A stretch of DNA of 3,546 bases from Enterobacteria phage FrBlood: sequence record PP430139.1, one strand, 5' to 3'. The notes beneath the pieces are model-generated. The model was given only the letters and a program-made list of their open reading frames with translations. It made no database searches and was not told the origin of the DNA. The translations under genes and the position numbers were made by a program. Positions 1-3,546 of the stretch are shown here, one piece after another. How positions within the stretch are numbered: position 1 is the stretch's first letter; each line of letters opens with the position of its first letter.

Positions 1-16
1 GACCCCTTTCGGGGTC
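1..16 (+). promoter_or_regulatory. 5'-terminal stable hairpin (stem GACCCC/GGGGUC, loop UUUC)
   Basis: Seen in sequence: positions 1-6 gacccc are the perfect reverse complement of 11-16 ggggtc, with a 4-nt loop tttc. Corresponds to the known 5' hairpin of MS2-group RNA; probably clipped by a few nt at the window edge. Confidence 0.75.
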
Positions 17-23
17 CTGCTCA

Positions 24-30
24 ACTTCCT
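24..30 (+). promoter_or_regulatory. Upstream complementary sequence (UCS) able to pair with the maturation-gene Shine-Dalgarno
   Basis: Seen in sequence: ACUUCCU (24-30) pairs antiparallel with AGGAGGU (110-116) over 7 positions (6 Watson-Crick plus one G-U). This matches the long-distance SD-UCS interaction described for MS2 that limits A-protein translation to nascent RNA. Confidence 0.65.
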
Positions 31-109
31 GTCGAGCTAATGCCATTTTTAATGTCTTTAGCGAGACGCTACCATGGCTATCGCTGTAGGTAGCCGGAAT
101 TCCATTCCT

Positions 110-116
110 AGGAGGT
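110..116 (+). promoter_or_regulatory. Shine-Dalgarno sequence of the maturation protein gene (AGGAGGU)
   Basis: Seen in sequence: aggaggt sits 7 nt upstream of the ATG at 124; a strong match to the anti-SD of 16S rRNA. Confidence 0.85.
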
Positions 117-123
117 TTGACTC

Positions 124-1305
124 ATGCGAGCTTTTAGCGCCCTTGAGAAGGAATCTGAAACCTTTGTTCCGAACGTCCGCGTTTACGCTGACGGTCAGAC
201 TGAGGATAATTCATTTTCCCTTAAATATCGTTCGAACTGGACCCCTGGTCGTTTTAATTCGACTGGGGCCAGGACGAAACAGTGGCACTATCCGTCCCCC
301 TACTCGAGGGGCGCGCTTAGTGTCACATCAATAGATCAAGGTGCCTATAAGCGCTCTGGGTCATCGTGGGGTCGCCCGTACGAGGAGAAAGCCGGTTTTG
401 GCTTCTCGCTCGACGCACGCTCCTGCTACGGCCTCTTCCCTGTTAGTCAGAACTTGACTTACATCGAAGTGCCGCAGAACGTTGCGAATCGGGCGTCGAC
501 TGAAGTCCTGCAAAAGGTGACCCAAGGTAACTTTAACCTTGGTGTTGCCTTAGCAGAGGCGAGGTCGACAGCCTCACAACTCGCGACGCAAACCATTGCG
601 CTCGTGAAGGCGTACACTGCCGCTCGTCGCGGCAATTGGCGCCAGGCGCTCCGCTACCTTGCCCTAAACGAAGATCGAAAATTTCGATCAAAACACGTGG
701 CCGACAGGTGGTTGGAGTTGCAGTTCGGCTGGCTACCGCTAATGAGCGATATCCGGGGCGCATATGAGATGCTTACGAAGGTTCACCTTCAAGAGTTTCT
801 TCCTATGAGAGCCGTACGGCAAGTGGGCACTAACGTTAGGTTAGATGGTCGCCTGTCGTATCCAGCTGCAAACTACCAGACTACGTGCAACATATCGCGA
901 CGAATCGTGATATGGTTTTACATAAACGATGCACGTTTGGCCTGGTTGTCGTCTCTAGGTATCTTGAACCCACTAGGTATAGTGTGGGAAAAGGTGCCTT
1001 TCTCATTCGTTGTCGACTGGCTCCTTCCTGTTGGGAACATGCTCGAGGGCCTTACGGCTCCCGTAGGATGCTCCTACATGTCTGGAACAGTTACTGACGT
1101 AATAACGGGTGAGTCCATCATAAGCGTCGACGCTCCCTATGGGTGGACAGTGGAGAGACAGGGCACTGCTAAGGCCCAGATCTCAGCCATGCATCGAGGC
1201 GTGCAATCCGTATGGCCAACAACTGGCACATACGTGAAATCACCTTTCTCGATGGTCCATACCTTAGACGCGTTGGCATTAATTAGGCAACGGCTCTCAA
1301 GATAG
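124..1305 (+). CDS. mat: Maturation (A / assembly) protein, the F-pilus attachment protein of ssRNA coliphages
   Basis: 393-aa ORF (MRAFSALEKESETFVP...IRQRLSR), ATG 124-126, stop TAG 1303-1305. Same length as, and by recollection about 96% identical to, the MS2 A protein. First gene in the conserved levivirus order and preceded by a strong SD. Confidence 0.97.
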   Translation: MRAFSALEKESETFVPNVRVYADGQTEDNSFSLKYRSNWTPGRFNSTGARTKQWHYPSPYSRGALSVTSIDQGAYKRSGSSWGRPYEEKAGFGFSLDARSCYGLFPVSQNLTYIEVPQNVANRASTEVLQKVTQGNFNLGVALAEARSTASQLATQTIALVKAYTAARRGNWRQALRYLALNEDRKFRSKHVADRWLELQFGWLPLMSDIRGAYEMLTKVHLQEFLPMRAVRQVGTNVRLDGRLSYPAANYQTTCNISRRIVIWFYINDARLAWLSSLGILNPLGIVWEKVPFSFVVDWLLPVGNMLEGLTAPVGCSYMSGTVTDVITGESIISVDAPYGWTVERQGTAKAQISAMHRGVQSVWPTTGTYVKSPFSMVHTLDALALIRQRLSR

Positions 1306-1318
1306 AGCCCTCAACCGG

Positions 1319-1340
1319 AGTTCGAAGCATGGCTTCTAAC
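1319..1340 (+). promoter_or_regulatory. Coat-gene translation initiation hairpin with the start codon in the loop, plus SD GGAG at 1317-1320
   Basis: Seen in sequence: gaagc (1324-1328) pairs with gcttc (1332-1336), leaving ATG (1329-1331) in the loop; flanking g1319-t1320-t1321 can pair with a1338-a1339-c1340 around an internal mismatch. Equivalent to the well-studied MS2 coat initiator hairpin. Confidence 0.7.
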
Positions 1341-1721
1341 TTTACTCAGTTCGTTCTCGTCGACAATGGCGGAACTGGCGACGTGACTGTCGCACCAAGC
1401 AACTTCGCTAACGGGGTCGCTGAATGGATTAGCTCTAACTCCCGCTCGCAGGCTTACAAAGTAACCTGCAGCGTTCGTCAGAGCTCTGCGCAGAACCGCA
1501 AGTACACCATTAAGGTCGAGGTGCCGAAAGTGGCAACTCAGACCGTAGGTGGCGTACAGCTCCCTGTAGCCGCATGGCGTTCGTACTTAAATATGGAATT
1601 AACTATTCCTATTTTCGCAACGAACGACGATTGCGCGCTTATTGTTAAGGCGATGCAAGGTCTCCTGAAAGATGGAAACCCGATCCCCTCAGCAATCGCA
1701 GCAAACTCCGGAATCTACTAA
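1329..1721 (+). CDS. cp: Coat (capsid) protein, which is also the translational repressor of the replicase gene
   Basis: 130-codon ORF (MASNFTQFVLVDNGGTGDV...AIAANSGIY), 129 aa after Met removal, as in MS2 coat protein. Conserved RNA-binding and structural residues in mature numbering: T45, C46, T59, K61, W82, Y85, N87, C101. Stop TAA 1719-1721 is followed immediately by TAG 1722-1724. Confidence 0.98.
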   Translation: MASNFTQFVLVDNGGTGDVTVAPSNFANGVAEWISSNSRSQAYKVTCSVRQSSAQNRKYTIKVEVPKVATQTVGGVQLPVAAWRSYLNMELTIPIFATNDDCALIVKAMQGLLKDGNPIPSAIAANSGIY

Positions 1722-1899
1722 TAGATTCCGGCCATTCCAACATGAGGATTACCCATGTCGAAGACAACAAAGAAGTTCAACTCTTTATGTATTGATCTTC
1801 CTCGCGATCTTTCTCTCGAAATTTACCAATCAATTGCTTCTGTCGCTACTGGAAGCGGTAATCCGCACAGTAGAGACTTTACAGCAATTGCTTACCTAA
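1672..1899 (+). CDS. lys: Lysis protein L, a small membrane protein encoded in the +1 frame across the coat/replicase junction
   Basis: 75-aa ORF (METRSPQQSQQTPESTNRFRPFQHEDYPCRRQQRSSTLYVLIFLAIFLSKFTNQLLLSLLEAVIRTVETLQQLLT). Basic N-terminal half, hydrophobic C-terminal segment with the LS-dipeptide region (LLLSLL). Starts inside the coat gene and ends inside the replicase gene, exactly the MS2 arrangement; same length as MS2 L. Confidence 0.93.
   Translation: METRSPQQSQQTPESTNRFRPFQHEDYPCRRQQRSSTLYVLIFLAIFLSKFTNQLLLSLLEAVIRTVETLQQLLT
1740..1758 (+). promoter_or_regulatory. Coat-protein-binding translational operator hairpin (TR / MS2 hairpin) covering the replicase SD and start codon
   Basis: Seen in sequence: ACAUGAGGAUUACCCAUGU, i.e. 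stem ACAUG/CAUGU with a bulged purine and loop AUUA. This is the canonical wild-type MS2 operator (U at loop position -5). The replicase AUG (1755-1757) lies in the 3' arm and the SD GAGGA in the 5' arm. Confidence 0.95.
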
Positions 1900-3392
1900 G
1901 GGACGAGTTGCTTACTAAGCACCCGTCTCTAGGAAATGGTAATGACGAGGCGACCCGCCGGGCTTTAGCTATCGCTAAGCTCCGGGAGGCGAATGAACGG
2001 TGTGGCCAGATTAACAGAGAAGGTTTCTTACACGACAAATCCTTGTCGTGGGATCCGGATGTTTTACAAACCAGCATCCGTAGCCTTATTGGCAACCTTC
2101 TCTCTGGCTACCGTTCGTCGTTGTTTGGGCAATGCACGTTCTCCAACGGTGCCTCAATGGGGCACAAGTTGCAGGATGCAGCGCCTTACAAGAAGTTCGC
2201 TGAACAAGCAACCGTTACCCCCCGCGCTCTGAGAGCGGCACTACTGGTCCGAGACCAGTGCGTGCCGTGGATCAGACACGCGGTCCGCTATAACGAGTCA
2301 TATAAATTTAGGCTCGTTGTAGGGAACGGAGTGTTCACAGTTCCGAAGAATAATAAAATAGATCGGGCTGCCTGTAAGGAGCCCGATATGAATATGTACC
2401 TCCAGAAAGGAGTTGGCGCCTTTATAAGACGTCGCCTCAAGTCTGTCGGTATAGACCTGAATGATCAAACGATCAACCAGCGTCTGGCTCAGCAGGGTAG
2501 CGTAGATGGCTCATTAGCTACGATAGATTTATCGTCGGCTTCTGACTCCATCTCCGATCGCCTGGTGTGGAGTTTCCTCCCACCTGAGCTATATTCATAT
2601 CTCGATCGTATCCGCTCCCACTACGGGATCGTAGATGGTGAGACGATACGATGGGAACTATTTTCCACAATGGGGAATGGGTTTACTTTTGAACTAGAGT
2701 CCATGATATTTTGGGCGATAGTAAAAGCTACCCAGATCCATTTTGGTAACGCCGGAACCATAGGCATCTACGGGGACGATATTATATGTCCCAGTGAGAT
2801 TGCACCCCGTGTGCTAGAGGCACTTGCCTACTACGGTTTTAAACCGAATCTTCGTAAAACGTTCGTGTCAGGGCTCTTTCGTGAGAGCTGTGGCGCGCAC
2901 TTTTACCGTGGTGTCGATGTCAAACCGTTTTACATCAAGAAGCCAGTTGACAATCTCTTCTCCCTTATGCTGATCATGAATCGGCTTAGGGGGTGGGGAG
3001 TTGTCGGAGGTATGTCAGATCCGCGCCTTTATAAGGTTTGGGTACGACTGTCCTCCCTGGTTCCATCGATGTTCTTCGGTGGGACGGACCTTGCCGCCGA
3101 CTACTACGTAGTTAGCCCCCCAAACGCCGTCTCAGTTTATACTAAGACTGCATACGGGAAGCTACTCGCGGATGCCCGTACCTCGGGTTTCCGTCTTGCT
3201 CGTATCGCGAAAGAGCGAAAGCACTTTAGCGAAAAGCATGACAGTGGTCGCTACATCGCATGGTTCCATACTGGAGGTGAGATCACCGACAGTATGAAGT
3301 CCGCTGGCGTACGCGTAATGCGTACTTCGGAGTGGCTGACGCCGGTTCCCACATTCCCTCAGGAATGTGGGCCAGCGAGCTCTCCTCGGTAG
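1755..3392 (+). CDS. rep: RNA-dependent RNA polymerase (replicase beta subunit)
   Basis: 545-aa ORF (MSKTTKKFNSLCIDL...ECGPASSPR), stop TAG 3390-3392. Contains the RdRp motif C YGDD (GTIGIYGDDIICP; codons at nt 2769-2780). Same length as, and by recollection highly similar to, MS2 replicase. Confidence 0.98.
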   Translation: MSKTTKKFNSLCIDLPRDLSLEIYQSIASVATGSGNPHSRDFTAIAYLRDELLTKHPSLGNGNDEATRRALAIAKLREANERCGQINREGFLHDKSLSWDPDVLQTSIRSLIGNLLSGYRSSLFGQCTFSNGASMGHKLQDAAPYKKFAEQATVTPRALRAALLVRDQCVPWIRHAVRYNESYKFRLVVGNGVFTVPKNNKIDRAACKEPDMNMYLQKGVGAFIRRRLKSVGIDLNDQTINQRLAQQGSVDGSLATIDLSSASDSISDRLVWSFLPPELYSYLDRIRSHYGIVDGETIRWELFSTMGNGFTFELESMIFWAIVKATQIHFGNAGTIGIYGDDIICPSEIAPRVLEALAYYGFKPNLRKTFVSGLFRESCGAHFYRGVDVKPFYIKKPVDNLFSLMLIMNRLRGWGVVGGMSDPRLYKVWVRLSSLVPSMFFGGTDLAADYYVVSPPNAVSVYTKTAYGKLLADARTSGFRLARIAKERKHFSEKHDSGRYIAWFHTGGEITDSMKSAGVRVMRTSEWLTPVPTFPQECGPASSPR

Positions 3393-3404
3393 CTGACCGA
3401 GGGA

Positions 3405-3489
3405 CCCCCGTAAACGGGGTGGGTGTGCTCGAAAGAGCACGGGTCCGCGAAAGCGGTGGCTTCACCGAAAGGTGGGCGGGCTTCGGCCC
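3405..3489 (+). promoter_or_regulatory. Cluster of 3' UTR stem-loops: one UAAA loop, three GAAA (GNRA) tetraloops and one UUCG tetraloop
   Basis: Seen in sequence: ccccg/cgggg around taaa (3406-3419); gtgctc-gaaa-gagcac (3425-3440); ccgc-gaaa-gcgg (3445-3456); cacc-gaaa-ggtg (3463-3474); gggc-ttcg-gccc (3478-3489). A further small hairpin cggga-ttc-tcccg lies at 3516-3528. Consistent with the structured 3' domain of MS2-group RNA used in replicase and maturation-protein recognition. Confidence 0.7.
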
Positions 3490-3532
3490 AGGGACCTCCC
3501 CCTGAAGAGAGGACCCGGGATTCTCCCGATTT

Positions 3533-3546
3533 GGTAACTAGCTGCT
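3533..3546 (+). promoter_or_regulatory. 5' arm of the 3'-terminal hairpin (partner arm and terminal CCA lie outside the window)
   Basis: ggtaactagc (3533-3542) has no reverse complement downstream in the window. In complete MS2-group genomes it pairs with GCUAGUUACC, followed by the 3'-terminal ACCCA. Confidence 0.6.

What the first reader, a model, noticed from the sequence alone, without database searches (positions are those of the whole stretch)
1557..1637. Charge-altering coat protein substitutions relative to MS2 (Q76, D99, A102 in mature numbering)
By recollection MS2 coat protein has E76 in the FG loop and S99 and E102 near the C-terminal helices; this sequence encodes Q76, D99 and A102, so the net change removes one acidic side chain from the capsid protein. 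The RNA-binding residues T45, T59, K61, Y85 and N87 are unchanged, so operator binding should be retained. Changes of this kind can affect capsid surface charge, stability or antigenicity, which is relevant if the coat protein is used as a VLP scaffold.
Basis: partly seen in the sequence, partly recalled or inferred. Interest (0 to 1): 0.35.

Follow-up and report, generated by a model that had tools for sequence, protein, structure and literature searches.

The report
Common wild-type MS2-group coat protein allele
The three coat-protein differences from laboratory phage MS2 are real, but they make up the ordinary coat protein of wild MS2-like phages, at three of the most mutation-tolerant surface positions, and two of the three are ancestral states that laboratory MS2 itself changed.

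Summary
The window is a near-complete Emesvirus zinderi (MS2-group) genome. It is 99.4% identical to phage FrHenna and 92.1% identical to reference MS2.

- **Observation:** its coat protein differs from reference MS2 at exactly three residues: E76Q (1557-1559 CAG), S99D (1626-1628 GAC) and E102A (1635-1637 GCG). The coordinates, the net loss of one acidic residue and the unchanged RNA-binding residues are all confirmed.
- **Not unusual:** the identical 130-aa protein is encoded by FrHenna, DL1, DL16, J20, DL52, DL54 and nine metagenome or sequencing-run assembly contigs. These carry 11 different coat-gene nucleotide sequences whose 46 variable sites are all silent.
- **Direction of change:** outgroups (fr, a 75%-identical metagenomic relative, GA, BZ13) carry D99. 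fr and the metagenomic relative also carry A102. So S99 and E102 are derived in the 1960s laboratory clade. Only Q76 is derived in the wild clade.
- **Tolerance:** a published deep mutational scan of MS2 coat protein scores all three changes as assembly-competent (0.55, 1.10, 0.74; silent changes average 0.63). It ranks the three positions among the 14 most mutable of 128.
- **Selection:** coat dN/dS against MS2 is 0.038, the lowest of the four genes.

Verdict: an ordinary natural polymorphism, public since about 2007. Interest is low.

The parts
1329..1721 (+). Coat protein gene (130 codons plus stop). It matches Pfam Levi_coat.
   Evidence: ORF list. PF01819 at E = 1e-67. The translation is identical to the coat proteins of FrHenna, DL16, DL1, J20, DL52 and DL54.
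1557..1559 (+). Codon 76, CAG = Gln (MS2 has GAG = Glu). It lies in the FG loop at the capsid pores. This is the only one of the three changes that is derived in this lineage.
   Evidence: E76 is invariant in MS2, M12, fr, L020, GA and BZ13. The deep-scan score for E76Q is 0.551. The E76 side chain hydrogen-bonds the T71 backbone, per 10.1101/2020.06.23.168070.
1626..1628 (+). Codon 99, GAC = Asp (MS2 has TCC = Ser). It sits at the base of helix A. Asp is the ancestral state.
   Evidence: D99 is present in fr, L020, GA and BZ13. S99D scores 1.096, the highest in its row. [quoted passage not shown] FrSaffron's GCC (Ala) is the one-step intermediate between GAC and TCC.
1635..1637 (+). Codon 102, GCG = Ala (MS2 has GAG = Glu). 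It lies in the first turn of helix A. Ala is the ancestral state.
   Evidence: A102 is present in fr, L020, M12, JP501 and every wild strain examined here. E102A scores 0.739. Glu102 is solvent-exposed (76 square angstroms) and has no adjacent positive charge in MS2 dimers.
1542..1559 (+). Codons 71-76, the mutable tip of the FG loop that lines the capsid pores. Apart from Q76 it is identical to MS2 (TVGGVQ). Pro78 (1563-1565) is conserved.
   Evidence: Sequence and alignment. The loop definition and pore location come from PMC9764284.
1464..1592 (+). Span holding the RNA-binding residue codons T45 (1464-66), T59 (1506-08), K61 (1512-14), Y85 (1584-86) and N87 (1590-92). All are unchanged from MS2.
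   Evidence: residue table; codons read directly.
1723..1758 (+). Replicase translational operator hairpin, the coat-protein binding site. The 19-nt core at 1740-1758 is identical to MS2.
   Evidence: Rfam RF02359, 60.6 bits, E = 4.7e-13. Exact match to ACATGAGGATTACCCATGT.
1568..1639 (+). Predicted (unverified) RNA stem, 1568-1576 pairing with 1628-1639. The nonsynonymous nucleotides 1626-27 and 1636 fall in unpaired positions of this stem. Nucleotide 1557 is also predicted unpaired.
   Evidence: RNAalifold on 14 strains. This is a local 242-nt fold with little covariation, so the evidence is weak.

Best explanation
This stretch encodes the standard coat protein of wild Emesvirus zinderi, not a peculiar variant of MS2.

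- **Residues 99 and 102:** they lie at the start of surface helix A. The Asp/Ala pair is the ancestral state. The 1960s laboratory clade changed D99 to S, probably through Ala (GAC to GCC to TCC). After M12 and JP501 split off, the MS2/R17/ST4 branch changed A102 to E. That restored the carboxylate one helical turn away.
- **Residue 76:** the invariant Glu became Gln in the wild clade through a single G-to-C change. Gln has the same shape as Glu and can still accept the hydrogen bond that the E76 side chain makes with the T71 backbone. The loop geometry should therefore be kept while one negative charge per subunit is lost at the pores.
- **Consequences:** all three positions are solvent-exposed and highly mutation-tolerant. 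They are away from the RNA-binding sheet. Assembly, operator binding and infectivity are retained. The expected phenotype is a small shift in capsid electrostatics, one fewer acidic group per subunit.

Shown here: sequence identity, distribution among strains, direction of change, tolerance in the scan, and infectivity of phages carrying this protein. Inferred: retention of the hydrogen bond, the charge compensation between 99 and 102, and near-neutrality.
For: - **Same protein in many strains:** it is in FrHenna, DL16, DL1, J20, DL52 and DL54 and in 9 independent ENA or Logan assemblies. It is recorded on 38 contigs and in 114 index blocks.
- **Maintained by purifying selection:** across 16 genomes there are 11 coat-gene nucleotide sequences and 46 variable sites. 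All are synonymous, with up to 25 differences between pairs.
- **Tree:** rooted on fr, the laboratory clade (M12, R17, ST4, MS2) has 100% bootstrap support and is separate from the wild strains.
- **Ancestral states:** D99 is in fr, L020, GA and BZ13. A102 is in fr, L020, M12 and JP501. E76 is invariant outside the wild clade.
- **Codon path:** TCC, GCC and GAC are all observed at codon 99.
- **Deep scan (PMC5895741):** E76Q 0.551, S99D 1.096, S99A 0.951, E102A 0.739, against a silent-change mean of 0.63 with SD 0.3. Mutability index is -0.09 for position 76 and -0.04 for positions 99 and 102, all within the top 14 of 128.
- **Exposure:** Glu76 and Glu102 are solvent-exposed and not next to a positive residue.
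- **Structure notes:** the E76-T71 backbone hydrogen bond. FG-loop residues 71-76 line the pores.
- **Selection:** coat dN/dS is 0.038.
- **Binding and function:** RNA-binding residues and the operator are unchanged. FrHenna is an infectious isolate and is still restricted by bNACHT systems.
Against: - No direct measurement exists of charge, stability or antigenicity for this allele compared with MS2.
- Near-neutrality is inferred from single-mutant VLP assembly scores in the MS2 background, not from phage fitness or from the triple combination in a VLP.
- The strict conservation of Q/D/A across diverged genomes could equally mean that the allele is actively favoured.
- The number of E/Q changes at residue 76 is unresolved. 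It is 1 on the coat-only tree and 3 on the maturation-plus-coat tree, with a wide bootstrap spread. Recurrent mutation, reversion or recombination cannot be told apart.
- The structural placement rests on the literature, because the AlphaFold model was of low confidence (pLDDT 53).
Confidence: 0.85

Rival explanations
1. Adaptive allele. The charge changes, especially loss of the pore carboxylate at residue 76, were selected in nature. Possible benefits are altered adsorption or aggregation, resistance to disinfectants, or evasion of a host or immune factor that recognises the coat protein. On this view Q/D/A is kept by positive and then purifying selection.
For: All three changes involve an acidic residue. 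Sites 76 and 99 changed more than once on a small tree although coat dN/dS is 0.038. The allele is held with no amino-acid change across 46 silent variable sites. DL52, which carries this coat protein, appeared relatively chlorine-resistant in a wastewater study. Coat protein is the trigger of bNACHT defence, and escape maps to a surface loop.
Against: DL52 also has a recombinant replicase, and DL54 has the same coat protein yet behaved differently. bNACHT systems still restrict the MS2-like phages, FrHenna among them. Assembly scores for the three changes are within the range of silent changes. D99 and A102 are ancestral, so they are not new adaptations of this lineage. No phenotype has been measured.
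Confidence: 0.1
2. RNA-level cause. The nucleotide changes at 1557, 1626-27 and 1636 were fixed for genome RNA folding or packaging contacts, and the amino-acid changes are tolerated by-products.
For: MS2-group genomes are densely structured. In an RNAalifold consensus of 14 strains, all four nonsynonymous nucleotides sit in unpaired positions next to a conserved stem, 1568-1576 pairing with 1628-1639.
Against: Unpaired positions are where change is free, not where it is required. No compensatory partner changes accompany them, and the covariation term is only -0.87 kcal/mol. About 43% of columns are unpaired, so four out of four has a chance of about 0.03 and was examined after the fact. The fold covers a 242-nt fragment only. 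The protein-level data already explain why these sites vary.
Confidence: 0.03
3. Artefact. The differences are sequencing or assembly errors, or laboratory-passage mutations in one isolate.
For: None found. The only reason to consider it is that the window is a single sequence.
Against: The same three codons (CAG, GAC, GCG) occur in 16 independently obtained genomes from different laboratories, countries and sample types.
Confidence: 0.01

Closest known systems
Coat protein of wild Emesvirus zinderi isolates DL16, DL1, J20, DL52, DL54 and FrHenna (GenBank ABO33461, ABQ02456, AFN39794, AFN39798, WZB35599; UniRef J9QBW2_BPMS2)
   Same: All 130 residues are identical, including Q76, D99 and A102. 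The whole window is 99.4% identical at nucleotide level to FrHenna.
   Different: Nothing at protein level. There are 2-25 silent nucleotide differences in the coat gene. Elsewhere, the window differs from FrHenna by 20 nucleotides and 3 amino acids: maturation V87E and Q211R, replicase D36N.
Reference MS2 / R17 / ST4 coat protein (CAPSD_BPMS2; PDB 2MS2, 1ZDI, 5TC1)
   Same: 127 of 130 residues, all RNA-binding residues, Pro78, the same length and an identical operator hairpin.
   Different: E76, S99 and E102 instead of Q, D and A. MS2 has one more acidic residue (9 against 8). S99 and E102 are derived in that clade.
Phage fr coat protein (PDB 1FRS) and the intermediates M12 / JP501 (E/S/A), GER_L00928 (E/D/A) and FrSaffron (E/A/A)
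   Same: fr and GER_L00928 share D99 and A102 with the window. M12, JP501 and FrSaffron share A102.
   Different: All of them keep E76. fr differs from MS2 at 17 positions in total.
Engineered MS2 FG-loop mutant E76D (PDB 1MST) and the E76 variants in the SyMAPS fitness landscape
   Same: The same residue is altered, and capsids still form.
   Different: Those are laboratory constructs. E76Q here is a natural allele of infectious phages. It is the same shape as Glu and removes the charge, whereas E76D shortens the side chain and keeps the charge.

Membership tests
Levivirus coat protein family (Pfam PF01819, Levi_coat) | Full-length match to the family profile above the curated cut-off | tested here: met
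   226.7 bits against a cut-off of 25, E = 1e-67, profile positions 1-132 of 132.
MS2-type coat protein acting as translational repressor | RNA-binding residues conserved (V29, K43, T45, S47, R49, T59, K61, E63, Y85, N87) | tested here: met
   All are identical to reference MS2.
MS2-type coat protein acting as translational repressor | Cognate operator hairpin at the replicase start | tested here: met
   Rfam RF02359 at 60.6 bits (gathering score 40) over 1723-1758. The 19-nt core is identical to MS2.
MS2-type coat protein acting as translational repressor | Actual binding of the operator RNA and repression of replicase translation | not testable with these tools
   Inferred only from the conserved residues and hairpin.
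MS2-type T=3 capsid protein | FG loop with conserved Pro78, and a 129-residue mature length | tested here: met
   The sequence reads ...GGVQLPVAAW..., so Pro78 is present, and the ORF has 130 codons.
MS2-type T=3 capsid protein | Fold and the placement of residues 76, 99 and 102 (FG loop; start of helix A) | tested here: inconclusive
   The single-sequence AlphaFold2 model has mean pLDDT 53.4. Its secondary structure agrees (hairpin turn at residues 74-75 and helix from residue 101 in Met-inclusive numbering, i.e. mature 73-74 and 100), but it is unreliable. The placement is taken from the literature and from 98% identity to solved MS2 chains.
Species Emesvirus zinderi (MS2 group, genogroup I) | Gene order mat-coat-lys-rep with overlapping lysis gene, and high nucleotide identity to members | tested here: met
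   The four ORFs match Pfam Phage_mat-A, Levi_coat, Phage_MS2_lysis and RNA_replicase_B. Identity is 99.4% to FrHenna and 92-95% to MS2-group genomes. The formal ICTV demarcation threshold was not checked.
Wild-type Q76/D99/A102 coat allele of environmental strains | Exact identity of the 130-aa protein | tested here: met
   Exact-sequence look-up found it in the collection. Translations of 16 genomes are identical.

The most novel reading that the evidence does not exclude
The Q76/D99/A102 coat protein may be a selectively maintained allele of the lineage that now circulates, while the E/S/E coat of laboratory MS2 represents a 1960s sewage lineage that is rare or absent in the field today. 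If so, wild capsids carry about 180 fewer acidic groups, concentrated at the pores. They could then differ measurably from MS2 in isoelectric point, aggregation, adsorption or disinfectant susceptibility. That would make laboratory MS2 an imperfect surrogate in water-treatment studies.
Probability: 0.15. Interest if true: 0.3.

Novelty: already known. Interest (0 to 1): 0.1.

Why it matters
It matters little for biology. It is a textbook case of natural variation confined to the most mutation-tolerant surface positions of a strongly constrained capsid protein. There are three practical points.

1. People using MS2 coat protein as a VLP scaffold have a naturally validated triple variant. It assembles into infectious particles and has one less negative charge per subunit at the pores.
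2. Nature shows that the E76 carboxylate, invariant in the other Emesvirus coat proteins compared here, is dispensable when replaced by Gln.
3. Reference MS2 is not representative of wild MS2-group coat proteins at these sites. This could matter where MS2 surface charge is used as a model for virus removal.

Tried and rejected
- **Structure prediction:** The single-sequence run gave pLDDT 53.4, too low to map residues, so no fold search was done.
- **Collection scans:** scans of IMG/VR and JGI metagenomes with the coat protein returned only two laboratory-MS2 copies (99.6% identical to MS2) and one distant relative, L020. They added an outgroup but no wild strains. The exact-protein look-up was far more productive.
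- **Accession guesses:** NC_001333 and PP430139 are not in the collection. AF227250, which I recalled as JP501, is actually the group II phage KU1. The JP501 coat protein was obtained from the cluster listing instead.
- **Missing paper:** Hartman et al. 2019 (FG-loop double-mutant and thermostability landscape) is not held, so no thermostability score for E76Q could be read.
- **Literature search:** searching for E76Q, S99D or E102A together with MS2 found nothing relevant.
- **RNA-structure explanation:** examined and judged weak.
- **Monophyly of Q76 strains:** not resolved by neighbour-joining trees.
- **Artefact explanation:** rejected.

Full report
**What the window is.** The 3546-base window carries four ORFs in the MS2 arrangement: maturation 124-1305, coat 1329-1721, lysis 1672-1899 (overlapping) and replicase 1755-3392. 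They match Pfam Phage_mat-A, Levi_coat, Phage_MS2_lysis and RNA_replicase_B. Megablast against 50,697 phage records finds phage FrHenna (PP430140) at 99.4% identity over the full length. The wild isolates DL16, FrSaffron, J20, DL1 and Hu-Sh-YMS follow at 94-95%, and reference MS2 (NC_001417) at 92.1%. The window starts at MS2 nucleotide 7 and stops 17 nucleotides short of the 3' end. It is therefore a near-complete genome of a wild Emesvirus zinderi strain.

**Checking the observation.** With the initiator Met removed, mature residue n is the codon starting at 1329+3n. Residue 76 is CAG (Gln) at 1557-1559, residue 99 is GAC (Asp) at 1626-1628, and residue 102 is GCG (Ala) at 1635-1637. Reference MS2 has GAG, TCC and GAG at these codons. 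They are the only three differences in the whole coat protein.
- The charge arithmetic was correct: 8 acidic residues here against 9 in MS2, with 10 basic residues in both.
- The RNA-binding residues are unchanged.
- The operator hairpin is intact. Rfam RF02359 scores 60.6 bits, and the 19-nt core is identical to MS2.

**How common the allele is.** A tblastn search shows that six GenBank genomes encode exactly this 130-aa protein:

| Isolate | Source |
|---|---|
| FrHenna | USA |
| DL16 | bay water |
| DL1 | river water |
| J20 | chicken litter |
| DL52, DL54 | bay water, 1130 km apart |

A seventh genome, a human-stool isolate from China, adds only G16S. The exact-sequence look-up finds the protein on 38 contigs within a 35-member cluster. 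It has its own UniRef entry, J9QBW2_BPMS2. The gene-position index lists it in 114 blocks. Nine further near-full-length ENA or Logan assemblies were retrieved, each 93.7-94.8% identical to the window. Across 16 genomes the coat gene has 11 distinct nucleotide sequences and 46 variable sites. All are synonymous, with up to 25 differences between pairs. CAG, GAC and GCG are invariant at the three codons. This is a stable wild-type allele held under purifying selection. It is not a peculiarity of this window and not an error.

**Direction of change.** A neighbour-joining tree of the maturation and coat genes, rooted on fr, separates two groups. One is a 100%-supported clade of the classic laboratory isolates (M12, then R17, then ST4 and MS2). 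The other holds all the wild strains. A protein alignment with outgroups and the JP501 sequence give these states:

| Residue | State in outgroups and relatives | State in the MS2 reference lineage | Conclusion |
|---|---|---|---|
| 99 | Asp in fr, the metagenomic relative L020 (75% identical), GA and BZ13 | Ser in the whole laboratory clade | Asp ancestral. FrSaffron alone has Ala |
| 102 | Ala in fr, L020, M12, JP501 and every wild strain examined; Thr in GA and BZ13 | Glu in the MS2/R17/ST4 branch only | Ala ancestral |
| 76 | Glu in fr, L020, GA, BZ13 and the laboratory clade | Glu | Gln derived in the wild clade |

At codon 99 the three observed codons form a one-step series: GAC (Asp), GCC (Ala, FrSaffron) and TCC (Ser). 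Only Q76 is new in the wild lineage. FrSaffron and GER_L00928 retain E76. The number of E/Q events is unresolved: 1 on a coat-only tree and 3 on the maturation-plus-coat tree, with a broad bootstrap spread.

**Is it more than chance?** There is no excess of amino-acid change. dN/dS against MS2 is lowest in the coat gene:

| Gene | dN/dS vs MS2 |
|---|---|
| coat | 0.038 |
| maturation | 0.069 |
| replicase | 0.071 |
| lysis | 0.73 |

What is non-random is where the changes fall. In the mutability index from the deep mutational scan of MS2 coat protein (Hartman et al. 2018, PMC5895741), positions 99 and 102 score -0.04 and position 76 scores -0.09. All three lie within the 14 most mutable of 128 positions, a chance of about 0.001. 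The assembly scores are E76Q 0.551, S99D 1.096 (the best residue at that position, ahead of Ala at 0.951 and wild-type Ser at 0.713) and E102A 0.739. Silent changes average 0.63 with SD 0.3.

**Structural context, from the literature.**
- Residues 71-76 form the surface-exposed tip of the FG loop, which lines the capsid pores (PMC9764284).
- The E76 side chain makes a hydrogen bond to the T71 backbone (10.1101/2020.06.23.168070).
- In simulations of MS2 dimers, Glu76 (116 square angstroms) and Glu102 (76 square angstroms) are solvent-exposed and not next to a positive charge (PMC9685359).
- My own AlphaFold2 attempt was too poor to use (pLDDT 53.4).

**Mechanistic reading.** The following points are inferred, not shown.
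- Gln has the same shape as Glu, and its side-chain oxygen can accept the same backbone hydrogen bond. The FG-loop geometry should therefore be kept while one negative charge per subunit is removed at the pores.
- At helix A, the observed 99/102 combinations are D/A, S/E, S/A and A/A. D/E was never seen. The carboxylate seems to have been moved by one turn in the MS2 lineage, with viable neutral intermediates (M12, JP501, FrSaffron).
- Net effect: the wild allele has one fewer acidic group per subunit than MS2, or about 180 per capsid. Assembly, RNA binding and infectivity are retained.

The functional evidence is that FrHenna and the other isolates with this protein are plaque-forming phages. 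bNACHT defence systems, which sense MS2 coat protein, still restrict the MS2-like phages, FrHenna among them (PMC12169576).

**Rival explanations.**
- **Adaptive allele.** This cannot be excluded. All three changes involve acidic residues, sites 76 and 99 changed repeatedly, and DL52 looked relatively chlorine-resistant. However, DL52 also carries a recombinant replicase, DL54 has the same coat protein and behaved differently, and no phenotype has been measured.
- **RNA-level cause.** This is weak. In an RNAalifold consensus the four nonsynonymous nucleotides are unpaired beside a conserved stem. There is no compensatory covariation, and the fold covers only a local fragment.
- **Artefact.** This is refuted by 16 independent genomes.

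**Comparison with what is known, and verdict.** The protein is identical to database entries that have been public since about 2007, judging by the DL1, DL16 and J20 accession numbers. No paper in the searchable library discusses these substitutions by name. The finding is accurate as a description, ordinary in meaning and already known as sequence.

The most novel reading still open is that laboratory MS2 carries an atypical coat protein from a 1960s lineage, and that wild capsids differ in electrostatics enough to matter for studies that use MS2 as a surrogate. The only MS2-type genomes found in the IMG/VR and JGI metagenome scans were 99.6% identical to the laboratory strain. I give this reading a probability of about 0.15 and modest interest.

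Noticed in passing
window 124-126: The maturation gene starts with ATG here. It also does in every wild strain examined, in M12 and in the R17 record EF108465. Reference MS2, ST4 and fr start with GTG. The base pair just upstream also differs (TC against CT). This could alter translation initiation of the low-copy maturation protein.
   Followed up: partly
window 1672-1899: The lysis protein differs from MS2 at 5 of 75 residues (F5S, A14E, R19F, K23Q, T68E). Its dN/dS is 0.73, against 0.07 or less for the other three genes. Four of the five changes lie in the N-terminal part that the Pfam lysis domain (residues 22-75) barely covers.
   Followed up: partly
window 1860-2003 (replicase codons 36-83): There is a cluster of charge-changing replicase differences from MS2: D36N, D40R, G81E, D82R and R83C. 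D36N is also one of only three amino-acid differences between the window and FrHenna.
   Followed up: no
window 1-3546 vs L001 (FrHenna): The window is not FrHenna itself. It differs at 20 nucleotides and 3 amino acids (maturation V87E and Q211R, replicase D36N). It lacks MS2 nucleotides 1-6 and the last 17 nucleotides, which is consistent with primer-trimmed or incomplete ends.
   Followed up: yes
L007 (MT830620, Hu-Sh-YMS-1704-01), coat codon 16: This human-stool isolate carries G16S on the Q/D/A background. The same AB-loop glycine mutates to Asp in MS2 escapers of the bNACHT32 defence system, where it is called G17D in Met-inclusive numbering (PMC12169576).
   Followed up: no
L020 (OGVH01003227.1) 811-1197: This 1.5-kb metagenome contig encodes a coat protein only 75% identical to the window's and about 75% identical to fr at nucleotide level. 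It looks like an undescribed Emesvirus lineage. It carries E76, D99 and A102 and was useful as an outgroup.
   Followed up: partly
L013/L014 (DL52, DL54), replicase and 3' UTR: These two strains have the identical coat protein, but their replicase is only about 80% identical and their 3' UTR 74-76% identical to the window. This fits the published conclusion that they are natural recombinants (PMC3499819).
   Followed up: partly
P0011, P0015 (laboratory-evolved MS2 coat proteins), residue 99: S99P appears in MS2 coat sequences deposited from experimental-evolution studies. Position 99 therefore also changes under laboratory passage. S99P scores 0.72 in the deep mutational scan.
   Followed up: no
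L018 (IMGVR_UViG_3300011370_000027), L019 (FUIF01025674.1): The only MS2-type (E/S/E) genomes recovered from the IMG/VR and JGI metagenome scans are 99.6% identical to laboratory MS2. They are probably spike-in controls or contamination and not wild phages.
   Followed up: partly
window 1568-1639: RNAalifold predicts a conserved stem, 1568-1576 pairing with 1628-1639, inside the coat gene. The variable nucleotides of codons 99 and 102 sit in its bulges. Only one-sided changes were seen and no compensatory pairs.
   Followed up: partly
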